Shown here piece after piece: positions 12,055 through 56,489 of a stretch of DNA of 64,000 nucleotides. Under the pieces are notes generated by a model. It was not told the DNA's origin and made no database searches. It saw only the letters and a program-made list of their open reading frames with translations. The DNA lies in contig CM075987.1 of NCBI GenBank assembly GCA_038087875.1, forward strand, positions 16,618,001 to 16,682,000, given 5' to 3'. Made by a program: the position numbers and the translations under genes. Each line of letters opens with the position of its first letter. The first letter of the stretch is position 1. Source of the DNA: Malacoraja senta. Lineage: Eukaryota.

Positions 12055-15000
12055 TTTTTTTATTTTTTTTATTTTTATTTTTTAAATTTTTATTTATTAG
12101 AAGTACATTACATTACAACCACATACATTAATACTCGTCATTTATATCTTCTTACAATTAATGTACTCCCTTTATTTATTTTTTTACACTAGAGAAAGAA
12201 AAGATTGAAAGAGAGAAGAAAGTGAAGGAAAAAGTGCAAGTGTAGAAAAGTGTAGAAAATGTAACAACAAAAAAGGACGAAGACCCTATAAGAGCGAAAT
12301 TAAAAACAAAAAGAAAAAGAGTTAAGAAATAGGCCCTAAGAAAAGAAAAGAGAAAGAGAAAAAAAGAGAAACAAATGGTTTTTTTTTGAGCATCACGTAA
12401 ATAGGACATACCAACTCTTCAACTATCATCCCCCCTTACCCGACCTCAATTTTTTATTTTTTTTAAAGTACTTTTGCACCCTATGTTTGTAATAATTCTA
12501 TAAATGCAGACCACGTCAGGTGGAAGTGATCTGGTTTACCTGCTAGGAGGAGTCTTATCTCTTCAAGGTGTAATGTTTCAAACATATTTGAAATCCACAT
12601 ATTTATAGTTGGTATTGGAGCCTTCTTCCAAAATTTTAGAATTAGCTTTTTTCCAGTTATTAACCCATAATCCATTAATTTCTTTTGAAACACATTTAGT
12701 TCTGGATCATCTTCCGTTATTCCGAAGATAATCCATTCTGCTTTGGGTATCAGTCTTGTTTTAAATAACTTTGTAAAGATTTCAAAAATTTCATTCCAAA
12801 ATTTTTGAATTTTTGTACAGAAGACAAATGAGTGCGCTATAGTTGCTTCTTGGGATTGACATTTATCACAAGTAGATGATACGTTTGGGAAAATTTTATG
12901 AATTTTAGTTTTCGAATAATATAATCTATGTAAAATTTTAAATTGTATTAAAGTGTGTCTTACATTAATCGAGCATTTATGCACTTTTAATAAGTATTCA
13001 TTCCAACTTTCCTTTGAAATTTTAATAGCTAACTCTTGTTCCCAGTCTCTTCTGATACCCTCCGTAGATGGTATTTGTGCATTTAAGATAATATTGTACA
13101 AATATGATATTAAGTTTGCTGATTCCGCTTTTATCTGCATTGCCTCGTCCAGTACATCTGCTGGGTTATTATGATGATCTTTTGTATATTTTTTCAAATA
13201 GTCGCATATTTGAAAGTATTTAAAATATTGATTATTTCCGAGTTTATATTTTATTTGTAATTGTTGAAATGAAAGTAATTTTCCAGTTTCATACAAGTCA
13301 CCAAGCGTTTTAATTCCTAGTCTATCCCATTGTGTATAAGCTTTATCTATAATAGAAGGACTAAACGAAGGGTTATTGACTATAGGTAATAAAAGTGATA
13401 AGTTTCTTAATTTTAAATTTTGTTTTATTTGTTTCCAAATACGGATTGTACTATGAATAATTGGGTTCTTATTATAGTTTATGTTATTCAATTTCATTGG
13501 AGAGAGGAGGATCGCTCCAATGTTTCTAGAGGAGCAATCCTCTTTCTCCATTACAATCCAGTCTACTTGCTGGGCGGAGTTATCCATCAGTTGAATCATG
13601 TTTTTAATATTTACTGACCAATAATAATACATAAAATTAGGTAGTGCTAGACCCCCCAATACTTTAGATTTATTCAGATGGGTTTTTTGTATTCTATGTG
13701 ATTTATAGTCCCATATAAAATTAGTGATATCTGAGTCGAGTTTTTTAAAAAACTTCTTAGGTAAGTATATAGGAATTGATTGAAATAGGTATAAAATTTG
13801 TGGTAAAAAGATCATTTTTATTGCGTTTATTCGGCCTATTAAAGACATCGGGAGCGTTTTCCAGAATTTAATTAATGTATTCAGTTTATTAAGTAGGGGG
13901 TCAAAATTTGCCCTGAACATACCTTGATATGTTCTGGTAATTTCGATTCCCAAATATTTAAATGTTTCTGTAGCTATTTTAAAAGGGAATTTTAAAAGAT
14001 GTGTTGAATCTTTCGGTTTTATTGACATAATTTCACTTTTATTCCAATTTATTCTATATCCAGAAAAAGATCCGAAGTCTTCAATTAAATTTAATATATT
14101 TGGTATAGTGATTTGAGGTTTTGTAATATACAATAATATATCATCCGCGTATAAAGATATTTTATTATATGAGTCTTTAGTATTATATCCATGAATATCA
14201 GGGTGTATTCTAATTTTTTCTGCTAGCGGTTCAATAATGAGAGCAAACAGCTGTGGTGATAATGAGCATCCTTGTCTATTTCCCCTTGATAGTTGAAATT
14301 TCGAGGATAATATGTTATTAGTAAGTATTCTAGCTGTAGGTTTGTTATATAATAACTTAATCCATAAAATAAAATTCTCTCCCAGTTGAAATTTTTGTAA
14401 TACTTTATCCATATAATTCCATTCTACTTGATCAAATGCTTTTTCAGCATCCAGCGAAATAATTGATAATTCTTGATCTTCAGATTTGTGTGAGTGCATT
14501 ATGTTGAGTAGACGTCTCATATTATTAGAAGAGTATCTCTTAGGGATAAACCCTGTCTGATCTGGGTTTATTAATTTACTAATGTATTTACTTAATCTTC
14601 TGGCTAATGTTTTCGCTAATATTTTTTGATCTGTGTTTAACAATGCTATAGCTCTATATGAGCCAGGTTCTTCTAAATCCTTATTTTTCTTAGGTATTAA
14701 TGTAATCGTTGATTCCGCTAATGTATCAGGTAGTATTCGTTTTTTAAAAGCGTATTGATACATTTTTTGTAATCTTGGTATTATTTTATCATAAAAGCTT
14801 TTATAAAATTCATTAGTAAATCCATCAGGGCCTGGTGTTTTTCCATTTTTTAGTGAGTTTATTGTATCTTCTAATTCCTTAATTGAGATTTGTGCACCCA
14901 GTTCCTCTTGTTCCTTCAGCTCTAACTTTGGAAAATTACAGGTATCCAAGAACTTTGTGATATTATTGGAATCAATTATCGTTTTAGATGTATACAAATT

Positions 15001-15258
15001 CTCGTAAAATTGCGCAAATCTTTTATTAATATCCTTCGGTGTTGTTAATAATTCCCCTTTATCTGATTTGATCTTTGGTATAGTATGTTCCTTTTCTCGT
15101 TTTTTTAGCTGGCGAGCCAAAAGTTTATGCGGTTTATCCCCAAATTCAAAGTGCTCTTGTTTTGTAATTTGAAAAAGTCTTATAAGTTTGGCAGATAATA
15201 ATTTATTTAATTTAAATTTTAAAATTATTATTTTATTATGTTTATCTATTGATGGATC
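12055..15258 (-). mobile_element. Young 5'-truncated L1-clade LINE, antisense within a URM1 intron
   Basis: Perfect 15-bp TSD ttttaagcatactct at 12040-12054 and 15259-15273. A-rich tail (T-rich on +) from 12055, a 3' UTR of about 430 bp, and an uninterrupted ORF2. Confidence 0.96.
12481..15258 (-). CDS. L1 ORF2p fragment (reverse transcriptase plus C-terminal CCHC). Endonuclease domain lost by 5' truncation.
   Basis: RT motifs PGPDG, YRAIALLN, LDAEKAFD, RQGCSLSP, YADD and YLG, and CDKC...H...C. The frame stays open for 46 codons upstream of the listed TTG (15120), up to the TSD junction. Confidence 0.93.
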   Translation of the reverse strand, partial: DPSIDKHNKIIILKFKLNKLLSAKLIRLFQITKQEHFEFGDKPHKLLARQLKKREKEHTIPKIKSDKGELLTTPKDINKRFAQFYENLYTSKTIIDSNNITKFLDTCNFPKLELKEQEELGAQISIKELEDTINSLKNGKTPGPDGFTNEFYKSFYDKIIPRLQKMYQYAFKKRILPDTLAESTITLIPKKNKDLEEPGSYRAIALLNTDQKILAKTLARRLSKYISKLINPDQTGFIPKRYSSNNMRRLLNIMHSHKSEDQELSIISLDAEKAFDQVEWNYMDKVLQKFQLGENFILWIKLLYNKPTARILTNNILSSKFQLSRGNRQGCSLSPQLFALIIEPLAEKIRIHPDIHGYNTKDSYNKISLYADDILLYITKPQITIPNILNLIEDFGSFSGYRINWNKSEIMSIKPKDSTHLLKFPFKIATETFKYLGIEITRTYQGMFRANFDPLLNKLNTLIKFWKTLPMSLIGRINAIKMIFLPQILYLFQSIPIYLPKKFFKKLDSDITNFIWDYKSHRIQKTHLNKSKVLGGLALPNFMYYYWSVNIKNMIQLMDNSAQQVDWIVMEKEDCSSRNIGAILLSPMKLNNINYNKNPIIHSTIRIWKQIKQNLKLRNLSLLLPIVNNPSFSPSIIDKAYTQWDRLGIKTLGDLYETGKLLSFQQLQIKYKLGNNQYFKYFQICDYLKKYTKDHHNNPADVLDEAMQIKAESANLISYLYNIILNAQIPSTEGIRRDWEQELAIKISKESWNEYLLKVHKCSINVRHTLIQFKILHRLYYSKTKIHKIFPNVSSTCDKCQSQEATIAHSFVFCTKIQKFWNEIFEIFTKLFKTRLIPKAEWIIFGITEDDPELNVFQKKLMDYGLITGKKLILKFWKKAPIPTINMWISNMFETLHLEEIRLLLAGKPDHFHLTWSAFIELLQT

Positions 15259-18200
15259 TTTTAAGCATACTCTGATCAGTCCATTTGGCCATTTAACTGA
15301 TCAAAAAAGTCACATTACTTGGTGAATGAGGAATTGTCAACTTATTCCTTCCAATTGATTGGGATATAATTATTTTTATGTGAGGGAAAGAGAGAGATTA
15401 GCATTCTATCAAACTGTTTTATTCCACCACCTACAAAGAGTCATATACACTTTATAACACCGAAACAGAATATTTGATCCAATGGATCTATGCACATCTT
15501 CATGCCCCTCTGAGCACCTTCTCTACTCATGGTCAACCCCTTATAGCAGAACCTCGTGGCGGGTGTGTTTCTCTTTAAATCATCCTCTTTAGAGGCCTTT
15601 GTAAAGTGAATCTCTTGGTTGATGCCTTTCTTTATTCATCGTCCCAACGCCTTTCAAATTGTATTTTTGGACTGGTGCAATTGGCAAGCTGACAGCTAAA
15701 AACATTTCAATGTCACTTTTGTAATCACAAGAGTGCCCACTGTGTTTTGTTTAACTGGTACTGAGCAACTGTGTTGAACTTACACTGCTGTCATCTTGCC
15801 AGTGAGTGACTAGTTGGTCCACACCTATTGATGAATTTTTCCTGTCTTCTCATTCTGCTGATGCTAGCTTATAGGCGATCTTGCAAATTGGCAGTTGCGG
15901 TGTATGAACTTGCAGGAAACATAAATGCATTTCTACATAGAACATAAAAGAGTACAACATGGGGACATGCACTTTGGCCCACAATGTCCGTGCCGAACAT
16001 GATGCCAAATTAAACTAATCTCCTCTGCCGATATATCCCTCCATTCCCTACATATTTGTGTGCCTATCTAAAAAAGCTTCTTGAATGCCACTATCTGTCT
16101 CCACCACCACCCCTTGCTGCCTGTTCCAGACATTTTCTGTGTGAAAATAAACTTGCTGCACACATCTTACTTTAAAGCTATTCCCACTACTCTTGACATT
16201 TCCACCCTGGGAAAAAAGTCCTGACTGTCTCAAAAATTCAACTCTCAAAATTGTTCTATCAGGTCTGCCCTCAACCTCTCAGTCTGACCTTCCAGAGGAA
16301 ACACTCCAAATTTGTCTGACCTCACCCTGCATTGTGCTTCTAATATAGTAAGATCTTGAAAAAGTACTTTAGAGCATTGATTATTATCTTACTAAATTTG
16401 ACAGGAAGCCACCAGAGATATTAGGACCGCTAGAGGTGGATGTGATGGGAAGCAGTTTAAAGGAGAAATGGTGGGCTGTCAGGATGACCCGTCTCGACTT
16501 GGCCACCCCTTTCCTGATGCTGCCACTACATGTCAGTCTTCTTTTCCAACAACCTTCGGGAGATGATCAGAAATCGTCTCCATCTAAATGTTAGTAGAAG
16601 TCGAGCCGTTATCATCAGTGCATTCCTATTCCATCTACCAGCAATCCAGAATGGGGGGGGGGGGGGGGGGGATGGGATCATAATTTCCAAATGAGGGGTC
16701 ACCCATCTAAGAGAAAGGCAAGGACGAATGTTTCCACAAAGTTGTGGATCTTTAGAATTCTCTACCTCAGAGAGCCATGCAGGCGGATTCATTGTCAGTC
16801 TGTGCATTGAATATATTTGGGCCTTTTAACCGCAAGAGAGTATGGAGAGAGAGCAGAAAAGTGGTGTCCAGGCCATGATTTTATCGGCCATAATATTATT
16901 GAGTGACAAAGCAGGCTCGAGGGGCTGACTAGGCTTCTGCTGCTATTTTTTCAATTCCACTGTTCTTGTGTACTTGTGTAGAACTGTGCAAACAATGACT
17001 ATCTTGGAGCATGAGTTTCTCCAGCTAGGGATCACTGAGACCGATTGTAATGTCTTTTTTTTAATAATCATCCTCAGGAGCTGGACATCAGTGATCAAGT
17101 TAGGTTTCTTCCTTCAATGCCCCTGAGAAGGTGGGTTATGATTTACTCTGTATGCTCTTTGGTCTCCCAGTGTACTTGTAGGTAAAGGGTTCAAGGCTTT
17201 GATCAAACGACAGTGAAGGTGCGGCAGTATGTATTCAAGGCAGGATTTACAGGCGACTTGGAGGTGATGCTGTTCCCATGGATCTGTTGATCCAGGTGTG
17301 ACCATCTCCCACAGAATGCGCTGCATCCAAGGAACATTCAATTTCTCTTTAGCTAAGGGTAATAAAAGTCTAAGTCGCTCTTTGTGTTCATTATCCGGTG
17401 ATCCCATGCTGGAAAATGGTTCGACTCGCTTATGATGGCTTCAGTGCAACAAAAGGATAATCAGAGACATTGCCTCTTTATCACGGCTTCTTTATATTAA
17501 CCTCTGGGGGAAAAAAAATATAAAGTGACTTTTGGCTCTTTTGCTGTGTTTCAGAGACTAATCTGTGTGGTATCAGTGTGAGGCGTTTATGGTAAGCTGC
17601 TCCGTCCCTCCACCCCCACTGCTCTGCAGGACAATGACCCACCCCTCGCCATTCCCTGACAGCAATAAATGGGCAACTTTTCCATAGTGACCGCGCCACA
17701 AAAGGTGATGCAAGACCGGAATGCACTGGGGTCATGAGTCTGAAACCGCAGGACAGCTCTGATGACCAGACCTTATAAATGACTCCTCTTTTGTCCAAAA
17801 AAAAGAAGCTACCAAGAGCACTGTTGCTTTGTGAGTGCAAGGTAGAATGATTGGAAGTTTGGGAGTATGTGGAGGAGGGGGGAATCTTCACTGTGTATTT
17901 GTGTGTGCTTGCTGTTCAAAACTGGATGGAACTGGCGTGCATACCTCCCAGAGAGTCCCTGGCAACAATCTATTGCTGTTCTAGCGCTCTGCTCGGCTCA
18001 TAGGCTGTGCTTTACACGGCCAGCACCAACATATACTGAAGTCACTGTTTAAAAAATTGGCCCATGTTTCTTTAACCTCCGTTGACTCTTAAAGCCCCCA
18101 TGACGACCTAAAATGTTGATAATTAAGGCTGCTAGGATTGGACAATGATTTCAGTTCTGCCAACGTTGTGCGTGTGCCAAGGAAGTACAGAAACTCACAT

Positions 18201-39309: not shown

Positions 39310-39398
39310 AAATCCAGCTACGGATGTCCATCCACAATTCTCGGGGTCTGAACAGTGAAAGCACAAGAATTGCGTTTGGACAATCAATAGCGAGAATT
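39310..39398 (-). ncRNA. MIR219A2: mir-219-2 precursor hairpin
   Basis: Minus strand 39386-39366 reads TGATTGTCCAAACGCAATTCT, which is mature miR-219-5p. Minus strand 39341-39320 reads AGAATTGTGGATGGACATCCGT, resembling miR-219-2-3p. The arms are complementary with a 24-nt loop. It lies antisense and just 3' of URM1, as in human. Confidence 0.97.
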
Positions 39399-41104: not shown

Positions 41105-42315
41105 TTAGATACATTTTGGAAGGAAAGATTTCTTGGCTCCCTCGCACGTTGCCCGGCAACAACAAACCAAAAGGGACAAATGTAACCAATCAGACGATAA
41201 AGAATAAGATTTTCTTGACGTCTGACCCTTTTAAGTGTGAGGAACAAAAATCGCCGCAGTTATCAAGTGCCCCGTGGCGCACACGGCTCCTGGGCCCTAG
41301 GTCTAACTTTAAATGGAGCTGATCATCAGCCTGATGGATTTACACTGAAAAAAGTATAGTAGTGAGAATCTGGCGTAGAATCTCAGTGCTGGAAGAAACA
41401 CTCTGCCCACGTTGCTCGTGTTGGCTTTATAAAGAAAAGTCTGAAAAAGGGTCTTGACCCGAAACGTCACCCATTCCTTCGCTCCAGAGATGCTGCCTGT
41501 CCCGCTGAGTTACTCCAGCTTTGTATGTCTATCTTTTCTTTAAGAATTATCCCACTGAATTATCCACTGTGTACAGCACATAAACAGCCCCCTCGGCCCC
41601 ACGTGTCAATGTTGGCATGCTGGACTAGTCCCATTTGCGTGCATTTGGCCTAAGCCTTCTAACCCCTTCCCATCAATTTATCTGATACACCTAAAACGCA
41701 TTTTCTTTCAATGTTTCATTTTCAAATGATTGTTGTCTCAATAAGACAAACTAATTTTTTTTGGTTCTAGTTAAGAAAAAGACGATGAATATATGTAATA
41801 TAGTAATATATATATATTACATAAACCGAATGTTTACGTATATACTATATACATAGCCGCTTCGGCTTAAAAACAACATTTGTCTGTTTTGGAGGAAGAT
41901 AAAAGCGAGCGGAATATCTGTAGGGAGATTATACCGGCCAAGCGATTTATATTAAATGTGACAAATTTGACGGCTCCTAAAAATTCAGATTCAGGAACAG
42001 CATCTACCTCACTGCTACACTCCTAAACGGTCCTTCCATAAACTAGGGTGTTGTCCCGATTCTCCGACCGACCTCATTGTAGTCATTGGACCTTTCCCTC
42101 TGGAACAATTGCGCGACAATGTTGGAAAACTATATTCTGCTCCCTGGTGCTTTTCTCTTCCCTCTACCCTTTATACTCGTGTCTGGTTTTATTGTATTCA
42201 TGTATCGTATTATCCGATTTGGTTGGATAGCAGGAAAACAAAAAAATGTTAATTATACCTCGGTACACGTGACAATAATAAACCTGAACTTGAAGCCCTG
42301 TGTGTTTGGTCCCGA

Positions 42316-42379
42316 ATTCCGTGGAGGATACGAAGTTACCAATATATATATATTGGTAACTTCGTATCCTCCACGGAAT
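42316..42379. repeat. Perfect 64-bp palindrome with no spacer, followed by (TA)n to 42400
   Basis: attccgtggaggatacgaagttaccaatatat|atatattggtaacttcgtatcctccacggaat, checked base by base. Confidence 0.98.
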
Positions 42380-44597
42380 ATATATATATATATATATATA
42401 AATACATACCCCCATTTGATGGAGATTGGATCCACTTAGATATGGAACACCAAATTTCCAAATGTGATATTCATTGACTCGCAGGCAATGAAAACTTTTA
42501 AAACGTAAAAATAAATTCTGCTTTCGAACGAAATATATTTTAAATGTTTCAGATTTACCCGATAGGTCGGGCGGCCTCCGAAAGAGGCGACCTCTGGATG
42601 AACCATCAGCCGAGGAACAGGATACCAGGTTAACAGTAAATTATACCAAGATACCAATAAAGACAAGTTGAGCCGTGGAGAATACCGAAAATAAATAAAG
42701 TCAATAGCTCAGGCAGCATCTGTGGAAAAGGCAGCAATGTTAATGTTTCAAATCGACGACCCTTTCAGATGGAGACACGAGAAACTGCAGATGCTGTGAT
42801 CTTAGGTAAATCACAAAGTGCGGGAGTAACAAATTGGGTCAGGCTGCACCTGGGGAGGGAATGGATATCCGACATGTCGCCTGACCATGTAATTCTCAGA
42901 TGCTGTCTGATCATCTGAGTTACTCCGGCACTATGAGATGACTTCGTCAGAAGGAGCTCTGTGTTTGTTTCCGATTTCCAGCATGTACCGTTTTTATTTT
43001 CGAGGGTTTTTTTTGGATGAAGTTTTCGTCTTCCCGTCAGTCGTGACTCGTTCCACGTTTGATCAATTCATTCGTTTATCACAGTTTGAGGGATTTATTT
43101 TGTTGCAACTGAGATCCTTTTCAAACGCGGCGTATCCAAGTTAATGTAACAATTCCCCGCGCAGACGGCGGGGCAGCTGTTTACTTACCTGACTTGTCGC
43201 TTTGTCCCGCTTGCCATTCCGATTCGTTTTACGGGCGAACGCTTATATAAGACCAACGCAAAACAAAATCCCACCCCGTCGAAAAGTTGCAGAGGGCTGG
43301 GAATGTTGGATAAAAGTGTTCGTGAAACCATTCATAAATAACAGAATGAATTAAAACAAAAGTTTAAAAAAACAAGGCGTTTTCAGCTCATTTTTCCCTC
43401 CCGCGGGTATCAATTTTTGAATTATTATTTACATTTTTAAATAGATTTCAGTAGTTCAAATAACATCAATTACAACGACCATCTAATTTGTTGCTGGGGC
43501 TATGGGGGTTAAAACGACGAAGAGGAGGGGTTATAAATAATTCAACTGAAAATCCTCTCCTGTACCTCTCTACCCCCCCCCCCCCCCCCTTCTCACGTTT
43601 AAGAAGCTTTTAGTTTCCCGACTTAACAGTTCTGGCGCGATTGGATGTTAAAATCTGTTTGAGAAAGTCCTTGGGGCGGTGTTGAAGGCACCAAGGTGTC
43701 TATAAATGCAAATCCTAGCTCTCGGGGACAATATTCGTCGAGGGAGTAAGTTTAATGCAAGATTAAGGAAGGAAGACATTTGGTAAAGGTGACTCTTTTG
43801 GACACGGGGTGGTGAGAGTGCGAAGTGCCCTGGTCTTGGGCACGGAAGAGGACAAGTGGCCGAATGGAGGACCAAACATCCAAGCTGTTTGCCGTTCGCC
43901 TGCCTCCGCGCTGCCATCTCTACATTTTGAGATGGTCCCTGCAGCTGGTGTCAAGTTTATAAACGGATCTGGATTCACGATGCAAGCTTTCGCGACGACT
44001 CCCTCTCGTGACCACTTCTTGCATGGCCGCTTGATCATTTCAGCCCAGCTATGGAGAGGGAGTGGGTAAATAGACCATATCTGCTGGATTCGAACGGCAA
44101 GGCAACCTCCTGACCTGACTGCGTTACCCACAGATGATAGGCATATCGGCTATTCATTGATTAGAGTAAAGCCCCGAAGAATGTCAAAGCGAGCCGGAGT
44201 TAAGGCTGTCGTTGATGGAGTTAAATGCAACATTGCGCTGTATTCAGGACTGTGGTCAGTTATGCACAGTGCTTCACATCTGCATCAGTTATCCAGCGAG
44301 CACAGAATGTGCCACACAGACACCACCCGGAACATTTTTCCCTGTGCAAAATACACACCTGTAACAGCGATCCAAGTGCTGTGCAGTTATCACATCTGTA
44401 TAGGAATTTCCTTTGAAAGTCATCTAAGTCCAGCGTGAGAAGAGCTTCGTTGAGGAAATGCACGGACTCTTGGGAACCACTGGGCCGTGACACGTCAGAA
44501 TGGAGAGGGATCCAGGATGGTATTGAGAAACCCCGCGTCCATGCATAAGGAGCGTAGAGAAACCCGGCGTAATAGACGAAAGGAACATGCCTGCCTA

Positions 44598-45285
44598 ATT
44601 TAGTTTATTGTCACGTGTACCGAGATACAGTGGAAAGCTTTTTGTTGTGTGCTATCCAGTCAAAATTAAAAAAAACAATTATACATAGTTACAATCAAGT
44701 CGTCCGTAGTGTACAGATACAAGATACATGGTATAACGTTTAGTGCAAGATAACGTCCAGCAAAGTCCGATTTAAGATAGTTCGATGGTCTCCATTGAGA
44801 CACGGTAGGTCAGAACCGCTCTCTTGTGAGAGGATGGTTCAGTGGCCTGATATAGACACAAATGCTGGAGTAGCTCTGGGGGACAGGCAGCATCTCTGGA
44901 GAGAAGGAATGGGTGACGATTCTGGTCGAGACCCTTCTTCATAATAGCTGGGAAGAAACTGTCCCTGAGTCTGGAGATATGCGTTTTCAAACTTCTGTAC
45001 CTCTTGCCTGCTGGGAGAGAAGTGAAGAGGGAGTGACCGTGGTGAGGCTGGTCCTTGATTCTGCTGTTTAAGAAGGAACTGCAGATGCTGGAAAATCGAA
45101 GGTAGACAAAAGTGCTGGAGAAACTCAGCGGGTGCAGCAGCATCTATGGAGCGAAGGAAATAGGCAACGTTTCGGGCCGAAACGTTGCCTATTTCCTTCG
45201 CTCCATAGATGCTGCTGCACCTGCTGAGTTTCTCCAGCACTTTTGTCTACCTTGATTCTGCTGCGGGCCTTGTTGAGGCCCAGCC
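44598..45285 (-). mobile_element. Rex1/Babar-type LINE 3' fragment with two nested PLE-derived insertions
   Basis: IKDQPHHGHSLFTSLPAGKRYRSLKTHISRLRDSFFPAI. Confidence 0.65.
45067..45253. mobile_element. Fold-back PLE-derived insertion with 77-bp inverted arms and flanking direct repeats
   Basis: Arms 45099-45175 and 45177-45253 are complementary except for one G-T. Direct repeat ccttgattctgctg at 45053-45066 and 45250-45263. Confidence 0.85.
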
Positions 45286-53502: not shown

Positions 53503-56066
53503 TGGGCAAATATGAAACAAAGCACTGTCAGACTTTTAAAACCGGATGGTTCCAATAACACACCAATTCCTGATGGCATGTCGTGCTATCAATAGCACCA
53601 AAATAGAAAGGGCTGGAAACACTCAGTAGGTCAGGCAGCATCAGTGGAGAGAGGAACAGAGTTTTAACATTTCAGGAAAAAGACCCCTTATCAAAACTGG
53701 GAATGTGAGAACATATGTTAAAGCTGGAGAGAGGATGGGAGAGGGGCATTGGGACAAAGGGAGTATCACCACAATGCCGTTTCCAATATTTATCTCAGAC
53801 TTTGGGCATCTGTTATTTTTGGTTTCCAAGTTCTACCCCTGTGACATCTTGTACGCAGCAAGTGACTGGCAGACGGCTGTGGAAATGGAGAAATCCCACC
53901 CTGGCCAACATTTCCCCCACATTGTGTTCCACCACTCACACATTGTGGGATCAGGTACAGTAAGTGCAAGATCTTCCTTCCATTGAAGCAAATGTAAATC
54001 ACTCCAGAAGCTGCTTGTCTTAGTGAGTATTTTGAAGCATTCACCATTGCACTTTTCTATTTCTGTATCGGCTTTTGGCATTAATATAGAACGTGGAACT
54101 GTACAGCACATGAACAGGCATTACGGCCACAATGTCTGTGCCAACCACAATGCCAATTTAAACTGCACCTCTCATGTTAAATTCCTTTATAATGTTATGT
54201 TGTATTCTTATTAATGGGCTGCAATGGCAACTCGAATTTCACTGCACCAATTGGTGTATGTGACAATAAATGAACCTTTGAACCTTTACTTGCTTTATTC
54301 AATGCCTTTTCATGTGCCTGTCTAAATGCCTCTTAAACGTTGCTATCATATCTGTTTCCACTACTTACCTTGACAGCGTGTTCCAGGCACCAACCACAAT
54401 ACTTGCTTTGCCAAATCTCCATTAAACTGTGCCCCTCTCACCTTTAAGCCATTCCCTCTAGTATTTGATATTTCCACCCTGGGAAAAACTCTGACTGTCT
54501 ACCCTGTCTATGCCACTCATCATTTTATATCGTTAAATAATGCTCCGATTGGAGTTGTTAGCATCTGGGGAACCACATCCGGTATTCGTCCCAGTGATCT
54601 GGACAAGAGAGGGAGGACTTTATTCTTAAAGATCCATTCAAACTACTCCCTATTCCTGGTGCTGCCTGACATCCACTCCCTATTTATTGAGGCCAATTAA
54701 CCTACAAACCCGTACGTCTTTCGGATGTGGGAGGGAGCACCCAGAGGAAACCCACCTGGTCACAGGGAGTGCATGCAAACTCCACATGGACAGTAACATT
54801 TTCTCTACATTGCATTCCACCAAGAACATTGGCTGCAACGTCCATTAAAGCAAATGTGAATCACTCCAGAAGCTGCTTGTTTCAGCGACTATTTCACATG
54901 TTTATGGTCAGGATTGAACCTGAGTCTCTGGTGCTGTGAGGCAGTAGCTCAACCATCTACACCACTGTGCTGCACTTATCGTGTTCCCCGTCTCATTTAT
55001 CCATTCACTTTGAGTTCCGGTATTGTATGCATCCTCATCCAATACAAAATTCTTTCATGAACTCCACCCAATAGCCCTACTTGCATCCACCCCAGTAATC
55101 ATCCAAGCACTCGCCTTGTCTCTCCAGGTTTTCCTGCCTTTATTCAGTCCTGACATGTTCTCCATCCTCCTCATATTGTTCTGGTGTGCGCTGTTACTGT
55201 TAAAGGCTGGTCTCAATTGTGCATTCTAATAAACTATCAACCCCAATATTTAAAAGGAAAACCGTTTTTCATGTTCCACTTGAACTCCTCTTCACAGGGG
55301 ACAAGCCTACAGCTTTAAGCTGCCATTTCTGTTCAATGTTGAATTCGGCTCGATCAGCAAGGCTGCTGGAGCCTTGAGAATTTCCTGTCAATCTGGCACA
55401 CACATGTGTTTGAAGATTAAAGAAAGAGAATACATTTAATTTAATGCAAACCTTTTGAATTAACTCAATCCCAGTTAAGATTCTGTTTTCCTTTCGTGCA
55501 GCTGTGTTTATTCAAACATCATTTAAGACAAGTTTGTGCTGAGTCTTCTTGCTTACATGTCCCCCTATGTTCTAAATTACTGGCAAACGCAGAACAACAA
55601 CACATTCATTTATCAGCAAGATTCAATCTCCTCCAAATGACTTACTTGGCCCATCGGTTCTACTCCACTATTCAATCATGGCTGATCTATCTTTCCCTCT
55701 TAACCGCATTCTCCTGCCTTCTCCCCATAACCCTCGACACCCGTACTAATCAATCCCCACCTTATAAAATACCCAGTGACCTGGCCTCCACAGCCATCTG
55801 TGGCAATGAATTCCACAGATTCACCACTCTTTGACTAAAGAATTTCCTCTTTCATATCCTTTCTAAAGGAGAGTCCTTTTATTCCGAAGCTATGGCCTCT
55901 GGTCCTAGTCTCTCCCACTAGTGGAAACATCCTCTCCATATCCACTCTATCCAGGCCTTTCACTATTCGCTACGTTAATGAGGTCCCCCATTTTAAGTTT
56001 ATTATTGTCACTTGTACTGAGGTACAGTGAAAATGCTATCCAATCAGAGCAGACAATACTATAGAT

Positions 56067-56235
56067 CTTCTATCGAGTCCACGTACAAGATTAGAAGTTG
56101 TTCAGCCAGAGCTGAACACACTTCTCGGCATCTGCACAATGGTGTCTGTCTTGTCGCTTCTTGTGTTTCTTGTGCGTGGTGGTGGAACGATTGGTGGAAA
56201 CAGGGCCGCGACGTGAACGCTCTTTCCTTGACCCC
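56067..56235 (-). mobile_element. 169-bp non-autonomous retroposon headed by a minimal HDV/CPEB3-like ribozyme fold
   Basis: 12-bp TSD aatactatagat at 56055-56066 and 56236-56247. Has a 3' stem-loop AGAAGT(G)TGTTCAGC-TCTG-GCTGAACAACTTCT and ends in ...GATAGAAG. Confidence 0.85.
56184..56235 (-). ncRNA. Predicted minimal (P4-less) HDV/CPEB3-like ribozyme, 52 nt
   Basis: GGGGTC-AA-GGAAAGA-GCG-TTCACGT-CGC-GGCCCT-GTTTCCA-CCAA-TCGTTCC. P1 is 6 bp starting with G1-U, P2 pairs 6 of 7, P3/L3 is GCGTTCACGTCGC, and J4/2 is CCAA (C at 56194). Confidence 0.75.
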
Positions 56236-56489
56236 AATACTATAGATAAATACAATCGTCAAGTACAATAGGTAGAGAAAAGGGGAAGATACAGAGATAT
56301 AGAATATAGTTCTCAGCATTGCAGTACACCAGTTCCAGAGACAAAGTCCAATTCTAGTAACCCCTGACATGACCCTTCCTGGGAAAAGAAAAACACTTAA
56401 CTCTATGTCCCTCTCACAAACCTTAAATGTTCTAAAGCATATTCTAGACAATAAAATACTTAACGCAGGAGTCAGTGTACATTTGACTA

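What the first reader, a model, noticed from the sequence alone, without database searches (positions are those of the whole stretch)
56067..56235. Second, different ribozyme-headed insert: minimal P4-less CPEB3-like fold
Seen: a 169-bp insert with a 12-bp TSD. The first 52 nt (minus strand) give P1 with a G1-U wobble, P2 (6 of 7 bp), P3/L3 GCGTTCACGTCGC, a 7-nt linker instead of P4, and CCAA. The 3' part has a strong stem-loop, a possible ORF end (DAEKCVQLWLNNF*) and a GAAG terminus. Known, from memory: GCGUUCACGUCGC is the P3-L3-P3' of the mammalian CPEB3 ribozyme, and P4-less minimal HDV-like ribozymes have been reported mainly from microbial or phage sequence. Inference: an internally deleted LINE (Vingi/Ingi/RTE-like) retaining only the 5' ribozyme and the 3' RT-recognition end. 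This bears on a possible retrotransposon origin of CPEB3-type ribozymes.
Basis: partly seen in the sequence, partly recalled or inferred. Interest (0 to 1): 0.88.

Follow-up and report, generated by a model that had tools for sequence, protein, structure and literature searches.

The report
CPEB3-type ribozyme heads short retrotransposon
This 169-base insert is one copy of a short mobile element that begins with a stripped-down version of the self-cutting RNA known from the mammalian CPEB3 gene and ends with the tail of a jumping gene, which hints at where that mammalian ribozyme came from.

Summary
Window 56067-56235 (minus strand) is a 169-bp insert between exact 12-bp target-site duplications.

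It is one copy of a family. An exact 30-mer of its head occurs 610 times in this 1.94-Gb animal genome.

- **Head:** the first 52 nt fit the HDV/CPEB3 double pseudoknot without P4. In the family consensus P2 pairs 7 of 7; the window copy has one A-G mismatch.
- **Relatives:** P4-bearing versions score up to 64 bits on Rfam's mammalian CPEB3 model (cut-off 35). Where context was recovered, they head or abut roughly 3.1-kb single-ORF endonuclease plus reverse-transcriptase LINEs of RTE-like architecture.
- **Fold support:** across 40 distinct heads, 90.6% of pair cells are paired, against 35-46% in slid controls. P2 and P4 show compensatory changes.
- **Tail:** the last 66 nt are the final 13 codons, 3' UTR and (AAG)n tail of an older LINE family I call G (62-65 of 68 identical).

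It is therefore a bipartite non-autonomous LINE, most likely freed from read-through transcripts by self-cleavage at G1 and copied in trans.

Not shown: cleavage itself, the 5' end of family G, and the identity of the organism. My paper searches found no CPEB3-type ribozyme described in a retrotransposon.

The parts
56067..56235 (-). One 169-bp copy of the short non-autonomous element, which I call family E (family consensus 172 nt)
   Evidence: 96-97% identical to the best-matching other copies.
56236..56247 (.). Target-site duplication, upstream copy in element orientation (AATACTATAGAT on the + strand)
   Evidence: identical to 56055-56066.
56055..56066 (.). Target-site duplication, downstream copy
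56184..56235 (-). 52-nt P4-less HDV/CPEB3-type ribozyme head (element positions 1-52); predicted cleavage 5' of G1 at 56235
   Evidence: Rfam RF00622 at 27.6 bits; pairing table; fold supported across families.
56230..56235 (-). P1 5' strand GGGGUC (positions 1-6)
56202..56207 (-). P1 3' strand GGCCCU (positions 29-34); U34 pairs with G1
   Evidence: Older copies carry GGCCCCU instead.
56221..56227 (-). P2 5' strand GGAAAGA (positions 9-15)
56184..56190 (-). P2 3' strand UCGUUCC (positions 46-52); G48 breaks one pair in this copy, where the consensus has U
56208..56220 (-). P3-L3-P3' GCG-UUCACGU-CGC (positions 16-28); A22 and C23 of L3 form P1.1
56195..56201 (-). G35 and U36 (P1.1 3' strand) plus the 5-nt linker UUCCA that stands where P4 is in relatives
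   Evidence: Alignment A1; cmscan of an older E copy.
56191..56194 (-). J4/2 CCAA; C42 (56194) aligns with the catalytic C of CGAA in the P4-bearing relatives
   Evidence: column 69.
56133..56183 (-). Spacer (positions 53-103) starting ACCACC, A/C/G-rich, with indels between copies; probably derived from a LINE 5' UTR
   Evidence: Heads of families B-D and of one metagenome element are also followed by ACCAC or (T/A)CCAC.
56067..56132 (-). 3' module (positions 104-169): the last 13 codons, stop, 3' UTR and tail of LINE family G
56091..56132 (-). ORF remnant DAEKCVQLWLNNF plus stop
   Evidence: It keeps the A-x-x-C-x-x-x-W-x-x-x-x-stop spacing of the LINE proteins.
56100..56117 (-). Hairpin GUUCAGC-UCUG-GCUGAAC, the core of a longer stem
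56067..56074 (-). Terminus GAUAGAAG (consensus GAUAAGAAG followed by (AAG)n)

Best explanation
The insert is a decayed copy of a bipartite non-autonomous LINE, which I call family E. It is a 52-nt CPEB3-type HDV-like ribozyme without P4, then about 50 nt of spacer, joined to the last ~66 nt of an RTE-like LINE (family G).

**Proposed cycle**
1. A source copy is transcribed as part of a longer host or read-through transcript (inferred).
2. The head folds into the nested double pseudoknot. C42 in J4/2 catalyses cleavage just 5' of G1, so the RNA starts exactly at G1 (fold shown by comparison; cleavage inferred).
3. The reverse transcriptase of a related LINE recognises the 3' hairpin, the terminal GGACUCGAUAAG and the (AAG)n tail in trans (inferred from shared ends).
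4. Target-primed reverse transcription runs to the RNA 5' end and leaves a 10-12 bp target-site duplication (shown in the copies).

The window copy itself carries an A13-G48 mismatch in P2. It is most likely an inert product, not a source.
For: **Family and ends**
- Own-genome BLAST: 1529 first-look candidates, 40 of 40 scored at 94-100% identity.
- Exact 30-mer of positions 5-34: 610 places. With GGGG in front: 482. With GUUU behind, as a control: 538.
- In 30 of 30 fetched copies homology starts at position 1 next to unrelated flanks. These were top-scoring hits, so they are biased towards full length.
- In 17 loci picked by the 3' core alone, 10 start at position 1 and 12 within 2 nt.
- Exact 10-12 bp TSD in 18 of 30 copies; 14 of those 18 start with A.

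**Fold**
- 40 distinct heads from five sequence families: 90.6% of 923 cells paired, against 35-46% when partners are slid.
- 13 of 27 pairs change on both sides (P2 4 of 7, P4 7 of 8).
- 0 of 500 shuffles reach the observed paired share or covariation score.
- E differs from family D in P2 by two compensatory swaps.
- Older E copies have P1' GGCCCCU. The abundant younger ones have GGCCCU, which restores a G1.U pair.

**Rfam RF00622 (cut-off 35 bits)**
- 39 of 60 listed own-genome matches pass, the best at 64.2 bits.
- All six fetched minimal E-type copies in that list (L051, L053, L057-L060) score 37-43.7 bits.

**LINE link**
- Family A heads a 3.12-3.135 kb element with one 934-aa ORF (Exo_endo_phos + RVT_1), an (AAG)n tail and an 11-12 bp TSD in 3 of 3 copies.
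- The E 3' module is 62-65 of 68 identical to four family G 3' ends.

**No Pol III signals**
- No B box within 2 mismatches on either strand, and no A box in the 5' part.

**Precedent**
- R2 SIDEs (PMC3414825, abstract).
- Bipartite non-autonomous LINEs of RTE, Ingi and R2 (PMC5786205, section 23 passage).
Against: - Cleavage was not tested, and no P4-less HDV-like ribozyme turned up in an animal element in my searches.
- The window copy scores below the Rfam cut-off (27.6 against 35).
- The linker UUUCC can pair with GGAAA of P2, and this competing pairing appears in the nested minimum-energy fold.
- In the one raw poly(A) RNA run laid on the region (about 6% of it read), the element is covered at depth 8-50 in both orientations. 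No pile-up of molecule starts was reported at G1. Such libraries may not capture 5'-OH ends.
- The exact start at G1 would also follow from a transcription start there.
- The 5' end of family G was not recovered.
- Three screens found no LINE carrying the minimal head or E's internal junction.
- Counts of paired cells count sequences, not independent events; there are only five lineages.
Confidence: 0.72

Rival explanations
1. The head is a relic. With P4 gone and four bases lost next to J4/2, it no longer cleaves. The 5' end at G1 is set by a transcription start, or the folded head serves another role such as protein binding or 5'-end protection.
For: - The window copy is below the Rfam cut-off.
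- A competing P2-linker pairing exists.
- No pile-up of RNA starts at G1 in one RNA run.
- E's TTTCCACC equals an 8-mer of the P4 loop and 3' strand of a family D head (L048). If that alignment is right, the ancestral catalytic C was deleted and a neighbouring C now stands in its place (my reading by eye).
Against: - All amplification seen happened after P4 was lost, yet copies carry no transduced 5' flank.
- P2 was kept through two compensatory swaps, and P1 was re-tuned to G1.U in the expanding subfamily.
- CCAA still fits C-N-R-A for J4/2 (motif recalled).
- No Pol III boxes.
- P4-less HDV-like ribozymes are active in vitro (PMC10879173, passages).
Confidence: 0.17
2. Hybrid origin. The head and spacer come from one LINE family (D-like) and the tail from family G, joined by template switching or recombination, as in R2/R1 hybrid SIDEs. 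The working mechanism is the same as in the best explanation.
For: - The E linker shares an 8-mer with a family D head.
- The 5' end of family G is unknown.
- Hybrid SIDEs exist (PMC3414825, abstract).
- Junctions between heads and inverted LINE pieces are frequent here.
Against: - No D-type LINE 3' end resembles the E tail: 39 of 77 identical.
- Nothing links the D head to family G.
- A simple internal deletion is the more common route (PMC5786205, passage).
Confidence: 0.25
3. Chance resemblance to the CPEB3 ribozyme in an ordinary short repeat.
For: A sub-threshold Rfam score for this copy.
Against: - Graded series to P4-bearing relatives at 44-64 bits.
- Covariation.
- A 19-nt identity to the model consensus.
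- Only one such hit in the 64-kb window at E <= 1.
Confidence: 0.01

Closest known systems
R2 SIDEs (short internally deleted elements) of Drosophila (Eickbush and Eickbush 2012, PMC3414825; abstract read)
   Same: A non-autonomous element made of a 5' HDV-like ribozyme joined to the 3' end of a LINE, and propagated by target-primed reverse transcription in trans.
   Different: R2 SIDEs are rare, site-specific in rDNA, and keep a full R2 ribozyme. This family is dispersed, has hundreds of copies, has an RTE-like partner with an (AAG)n tail, and its ribozyme lacks P4.
Bipartite non-autonomous LINEs of RTE, Ingi and R2 (Kojima 2018, PMC5786205; passage of section 23 read); NARTc/L1Tc of trypanosomes (PMC3383444, abstract in a search listing)
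   Same: The 5' end plus the 3' end of a LINE. That paper already offers a 5' ribozyme as the reason the true 5' end is kept.
   Different: The passages I saw describe no CPEB3-type or P4-less head. Here the parent's own 5' end is still missing.
Mammalian CPEB3 ribozyme (Rfam RF00622)
   Same: - Same fold and much the same sequence.
- P3-L3-P3' and the P1 3' strand are identical over 19 nt in this copy.
- P4-bearing relatives in this genome score 44-64 bits.
- One metagenome element is identical at 35 of the first 37 ribozyme bases, counted on the alignment.
   Different: - CPEB3 is a single-copy intronic element of one host gene and has P4.
- This is a multi-copy retroelement head with a 6-bp P1 and no P4, and this copy scores below the cut-off.
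Minimal (P4-less) HDV-like ribozymes: drz-Mtgn and theta ribozymes (Kienbeck 2024, PMC10879173; passages read)
   Same: No P4; the catalytic C is the first base of J4/2; roughly 50-60 nt.
   Different: Those are almost all in phages, often beside tRNA genes. This one sits in an animal genome at the head of a retroelement and looks like a recent P4 loss from a CPEB3-type ancestor, not a relative of the phage forms.
HDV-like ribozymes at the 5' ends of RTE and other LINEs (Ruminski 2011; not held, known to me only through citations in PMC5786205 and PMC7761336)
   Same: A ribozyme at the LINE 5' end that processes co-transcripts.
   Different: I could not check which sequences that paper reports, so overlap with the families seen here cannot be excluded.

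Membership tests
HDV-like (delta-like) self-cleaving ribozymes | Nested double pseudoknot: P1, P1.1, P2, P3 (P4 dispensable) | tested here: met
   The pairing table for the window copy and the consensus shows the window copy lacking only A13-G48. Across 40 heads, 90.6% of cells are paired against 35-46% in slid controls.
HDV-like (delta-like) self-cleaving ribozymes | Catalytic cytosine at the first position of J4/2 (position stated in PMC10879173; the C-N-R-A motif is recalled) | tested here: met
   CCAA, with C42 aligned to the C of CGAA or CUAA in relatives (column 69).
HDV-like (delta-like) self-cleaving ribozymes | G1.U wobble at the base of P1 beside the cleavage site (recalled) | tested here: met
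   G1.U34 in the window copy and the young consensus. Older copies have GGCCCCU, which allows G1-C instead.
HDV-like (delta-like) self-cleaving ribozymes | Self-cleavage 5' of G1, abolished by changing the catalytic C to U | not testable with these tools
   Needs a bench assay. One RNA run showed no pile-up of starts, which does not settle it.
Rfam RF00622 CPEB3_ribozyme | Score at or above the gathering cut-off of 35 bits | tested here: not met
   The window copy scores 27.6 bits. The six fetched older E copies score 37-43.7 bits and the P4-bearing families 44-64 bits.
Mammalian CPEB3 ribozyme as a gene element (orthologue) | Single copy in an intron of CPEB3 | tested here: not met
   Multi-copy element flanked by TSDs. 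It is a sequence relative, not the orthologue.
Minimal drz / theta ribozymes | Lacks P4 | tested here: met
   A 5-nt linker stands where relatives have an 8-bp P4.
Minimal drz / theta ribozymes | Phage context, often beside a tRNA gene | tested here: not met
   Animal genome, head of a retroelement.
Bipartite non-autonomous LINE / SIDE | The 3' end is that of a LINE | tested here: met
   62-65 of 68 identical to four family G 3' ends; homology starts inside the ORF at DAEK.
Bipartite non-autonomous LINE / SIDE | The 5' end is that of the same LINE | tested here: inconclusive
   The head is homologous to heads of RTE-like LINEs in this genome. No full-length family G copy was obtained.
Bipartite non-autonomous LINE / SIDE | Same tail and target-site duplication as the partner | tested here: met
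   (AAG)n tail and 10-12 bp TSD in E. (AAG)n tail and 11-12 bp TSD in 3 of 3 family A LINEs. The same GGACTCGATAAG(AAG)n end in family G.
RTE clade of LINEs (for the partner) | About 3.2 kb, a single ORF with an AP-endonuclease and a reverse transcriptase, and a short-repeat tail (recalled definition) | tested here: met
   Family A. Homologues at 46-63% identity (two shorter ones at 85-87%) are mostly ~850-1050 aa, many on 3.0-3.4 kb contigs.
RTE clade of LINEs (for the partner) | Groups with reference RTE reverse transcriptases in a tree | not tested
Classical SINE (Pol III head) | Internal A and B boxes derived from tRNA, 7SL or 5S | tested here: not met
   No B box within 2 mismatches on either strand. 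The only A-box-like word on the sense strand is at position 130 with 2 mismatches.

The most novel reading that the evidence does not exclude
CPEB3-type ribozymes are the working 5' heads of a living lineage of RTE-like LINEs, and the 'mammal-only' CPEB3 ribozyme is one such head captured in an intron. Examples are at least five head families in this genome and one element on metagenome contigs. Family E would also show that this ribozyme type still cleaves after losing P4 entirely. At 52 nt it would be the smallest natural HDV-like ribozyme known in a eukaryote.
Probability: 0.4. Interest if true: 0.85.

Novelty: new variant of a known kind. Interest (0 to 1): 0.72.

Why it matters
[quoted passage not shown] That its kind was co-opted from mobile elements has been said only in general terms (PMC7761336, passage).

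This genome holds dozens to thousands of CPEB3-type ribozymes above Rfam's cut-off. They sit in their presumed original job, as the heads of RTE-like LINEs and their short derivatives. This has two consequences:

- The origin of the CPEB3 ribozyme becomes testable by comparing sequences.
- Evolution has supplied a natural deletion series: P4 of 4-8 bp in families A-D and none in E. This shows what the fold can do without.

The weight of the first point depends on the genome not being a mammal's, which I could only argue indirectly.

Tried and rejected
**Screens for the parent LINE**
- Three pattern screens failed before a fourth worked:
  - an exact 3' core with non-E bases upstream: 17 hits, all E copies, some with nested inserts;
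  - a 5' anchor at the junction: 19 hits, all E with small indels;
  - the minimal head with non-E bases downstream: 27 hits, all E-like.
- The first screen missed family G because its core ran into codons that differ (NNF against N-I).
- BLAST of E halves against all held loci and the window found only E copies and ribozyme cores.

**5' end of family G**
- BLAST with 1 kb of family G scored 40 of 1080 first-look candidates at 80-93% identity, mostly 5'-truncated.
- A smaller fetch at the expected place was not LINE sequence.
- No family G reverse-transcriptase sequence lies next to any held head.

**RNA evidence**
- No RNA holder was listed.

**Identifying the organism**
- Atlas taxa went no further than Chordata.
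- Named homologues of the LINE protein come from many phyla.
- The window ORFs I tried are another LINE or low-complexity sequence.
- A recalled likeness of neighbouring repeats to cartilaginous-fish repeats is unverified.

**Other**
- Nested folding of the head is uninformative for a pseudoknot (z = +0.7 to +0.8).
- Family F LINE heads gave only sub-threshold HDV-like hits that run into locus-specific flank.
- Earlier scan notes: nothing on this genome or sequence, and four unrelated ribozyme notes.
- Ruminski 2011 and Webb 2009 are not held.
- Paper searches found no paper describing a CPEB3-type ribozyme in a LINE or SINE. Search 104 ranked only unrelated papers and tells nothing. Subscription journals, Repbase and Dfam were not searchable.

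Full report
**1. The observation**

On the minus strand, window 56067-56235 reads as a 169-nt unit. It is flanked on both sides by the same 12 bases; on the + strand, 56055-56066 and 56236-56247 are both AATACTATAGAT.

Its first 52 nt can form these pairings:
- P1 of 6 bp, including G1.U34.
- P2 of 7 bp with one A13-G48 mismatch.
- P3 of 3 bp closing the loop UUCACGU.
- A 2-bp P1.1.
- A 5-nt linker where P4 should be.
- J4/2 CCAA, with C42 at window 56194.

Rfam's CPEB3_ribozyme model matches at 27.6 bits, below its 35-bit cut-off. E = 2.2e-5 in a 401-nt scan and 0.0035 over the whole window, where it is the only such hit.

The last 75 nt fold into a long hairpin at -24.2 kcal/mol, z = -2.54. 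The frame DAEKCVQLWLNNF* and the GAAG end are there.

**2. It is a family, and the copies start at G1**

- The genome is a 1.94-Gb animal assembly with a vertebrate-type mir-219 in the window.
- BLAST gave 1529 first-look candidates. All 40 scored were 94-100% identical and near full length.
- An exact 30-mer of positions 5-34 occurs 610 times. 482 of these have GGGG in front, and 538 have the next four bases behind as a control. So about nine in ten copies that reach position 5 go on to G1.
- In 30 fetched copies homology begins at position 1 beside unrelated flanks, and the tails are GATAAGAAG(AAG)n. These were the best-scoring hits and so are biased towards full length.
- Of 17 loci chosen by the 3' core alone, 10 start at position 1 and 12 within two bases.
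- Exact TSDs of 10-12 bp are present in 18 of 30 copies, and most others are near-exact.
- 28 of 30 copies have UCUUUCC where the window copy has UCGUUCC.

**3. Relatives with P4, and the fold**

Scanning the whole genome with RF00622 gave 60 listed matches, 39 above the cut-off, the best at 64.2 bits. The first look counted about 102,000 rough candidates, of which 59 were scored.

The matches fall into sequence families:
- Families A to D have a P4 of 4-8 bp.
- Family E is the minimal form.
- All six fetched older E copies in that list score 37-43.7 bits.

I aligned 40 distinct heads. I dropped L041 (tandem partial duplication), L055 (no L3 core) and identical rows. On this alignment the five-helix structure has 90.6% of 923 cells paired, against 35-46% when partners are slid by 1-3 columns. 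Thirteen of 27 pairs change on both sides (P2 4 of 7, P4 7 of 8, P1 1 of 7, P3 1 of 3), and no shuffle of 500 reaches the observed values. These counts are of sequences from five lineages, not of independent events.

Within that frame:
- E differs from family D in P2 by two compensatory swaps.
- The C aligned with the catalytic C is kept.

Older E copies (85-92% identical to the query) carry GGCCCCU as the P1 3' strand opposite a 6-nt 5' strand. The abundant young copies have lost one C, which gives G1.U34. I read this as re-tuning of P1 in the subfamily that expanded (inference).

E's TTTCCACC equals an 8-mer spanning the P4 loop and 3' strand of one family D head (L048). This suggests P4 was lost by two small deletions (my reading by eye).

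**4. What the heads belong to**

*Family A.*
- It heads a 3.12-3.135 kb element with a single 934-aa ORF carrying Exo_endo_phos and RVT_1.
- It has an (AAG)n tail and an 11-12 bp TSD in 3 of 3 copies.
- Its protein is mostly 46-63% identical to ~850-1050-aa proteins from insects, echinoderms, amphioxus, fishes and a lizard. Many of these sit on 3.0-3.4 kb contigs.
- That architecture is RTE-like. I made no tree.

*Heads of families B, C and D.* In nine loci (eight with B, C or D heads and one with an A head) the head abuts a 5'-truncated, inverted piece of a related reverse transcriptase. The break points vary from aa 577 to 909. This is the pattern expected if a second priming event copies the RNA to its very 5' end.

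*An outside example.* One element on metagenome contigs (three contigs, one locus) carries a CPEB3-type ribozyme at 55.6 bits.
- It encodes a protein 51% identical to the family A protein.
- The ribozyme lies about 150 nt upstream of the ORF match and is again followed by ACCAC.
- It is identical to the Rfam consensus at 35 of the first 37 ribozyme bases.
- It was 1 distinct element among the 20 loci scanned. Another locus had a sub-threshold HDV-like hit.

**5. The 3' half and its parent**

The LINE proteins end A-x-x-C-x-x-x-W-x-x-x-x-stop, and the E remnant keeps this spacing.

A degenerate-codon pattern with non-E bases upstream found 57 places. About 20 of them share ...GCTGCCTACAATGAA|GATGCCGAGAAG, that is ...AAYNE|DAEKCVQLWLN.

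Four fetched 3' ends read DA(E/V)KCVQLWLN(D/N/Y)I*, followed by a short UTR ending GGACTCGATAAG(AAG)n. They are 62-65 of 68 identical to the E module, and homology starts exactly at GATGCC.

This family, G, is older: 80-93% identity between copies, mostly 5'-truncated. Its reverse transcriptase is closer to proteins that end QQCVQLWLNHI than to family A (55-78% against 48-56%). One of those proteins is named by NCBI as from a teleost.

For comparison, other LINE 3' ends match the E module less well:

| LINE family | Identical / aligned columns |
|---|---|
| F | 43 / 70 |
| A | 36 / 72 |
| D-linked LINE | 39 / 77 |

I could not obtain a full-length G copy or its head.

**6. How it most likely works**

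*Shown*
- The fold is conserved by compensation.
- Copies start at G1.
- The tail is a LINE tail.
- TSDs and tails match those of the LINEs.

*Inferred*
- Transcription is by read-through.
- Self-cleavage occurs 5' of G1, using C42.
- A LINE reverse transcriptase recognises the 3' hairpin and terminal repeat in trans.

No Pol III boxes are present. The main rival is that the minimal head no longer cleaves and a transcription start fixes the 5' end.

*Points against cleavage*
- The linker can compete for P2.
- One poly(A) RNA run shows no pile-up of starts at G1; this is weak evidence, since such libraries may miss 5'-OH ends.

The window copy, with its P2 mismatch, is most likely an inert product.

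**7. Comparison with what is known**

- The design is that of R2 SIDEs (PMC3414825, abstract). It is also that of the 'bipartite non-autonomous LINEs' of RTE, Ingi and R2, for which a 5' ribozyme has been proposed as the reason the true 5' end is kept (PMC5786205, passage).
- P4-less HDV-like ribozymes are known, but nearly all come from phages (PMC10879173, passages).
[quoted passage not shown] Co-option from mobile elements has been suggested only in general terms (PMC7761336, passage).
- Seven searches found no paper describing a CPEB3-type ribozyme in a LINE or SINE. The key RTE ribozyme paper (Ruminski 2011) is not held, so overlap cannot be excluded.

The element is not the CPEB3 orthologue, and this copy fails the Rfam cut-off. 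It works like, and is a sequence relative of, that ribozyme.

**8. Limits**

- The organism is not identified. That it is not a typical mammal rests on two points: many above-threshold hits where mammals are reported to have one, and no hit above 64 bits among those scored.
- Cleavage is untested.
- The head of family G is unknown.
- The clade assignment is by architecture only.

**Verdict:** a real element and a new variant of a known kind. Its wider interest lies in what it implies for the origin of the CPEB3 ribozyme.

Noticed in passing
L035, L038, L042, L046, L048, L052, L054, L055, L056 (head at about 1501-1590 of each oriented locus): In nine loci a ribozyme head (families B, C, D, and one of family A) abuts an inverted, 5'-truncated piece of a related LINE reverse transcriptase. 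Break points vary from aa 577 to 909 and the first few head bases are often replaced. It looks like twin-priming-type 5' inversions that reach the RNA 5' end.
   Followed up: partly
L087:170-253 (the same locus in L088 and L089): Metagenome contigs encode a relative of the LINE protein (51% identity) and carry a CPEB3-type ribozyme at 55.6 bits upstream of the ORF, again followed by ACCAC.
   Followed up: partly
L041 and L161 (reverse strand, about 1290-1400): Some family A LINE copies begin with several tandem repeats of a 26-nt piece of the ribozyme (P1 3' part through P3) before a complete head.
   Followed up: no
L163, L166 (G000:C3318 and C4794): Another RTE-like LINE family (F) has an ORF end ...TCARYWQNDI* and the terminus GGACTCGAAGAAG. 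Both copies seen start CGTGGTGCAGCCTGGGAAAC. Only sub-threshold HDV-like Rfam hits were found, and they run into the flank.
   Followed up: partly
window 39314-39394 (-): mir-219 precursor at 71.5 bits (cut-off 54.5); the antisense strand also scores 42 bits.
   Followed up: no
window 12481-15300 (-): An open 939-aa frame with RVT_1 and a weak zf-RVT match. It is a different LINE type, only 24% identical to the RTE-like protein over 168 aa.
   Followed up: partly
window 42314-42381 and 45127-45225: Two near-perfect palindromic hairpins give sub-threshold hits to several miRNA models on both strands. They may be inverted-repeat elements.
   Followed up: no
window 55900-55967 and 56002-56035: Very high-copy repeats lie beside the insert; summed contig depth is far above that of the unique flanks. 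One encodes ...GLDRVDMERMFPLVGETRTRGH.... I recall similar repeat peptides from cartilaginous fishes, but this is unverified.
   Followed up: no
L064, L066, L073, L079, L080: Family E copies carry other repeats inserted in or next to ATGCAGATGCC, around the junction of spacer and 3' module.
   Followed up: no
window 56067-56235, runs X1, X2 and X14: Contigs from runs of two coded organisms (A and G) match the element with 2-7 differences per 64-140 nt. The family is therefore not confined to one sample and may be shared by related species.
   Followed up: no
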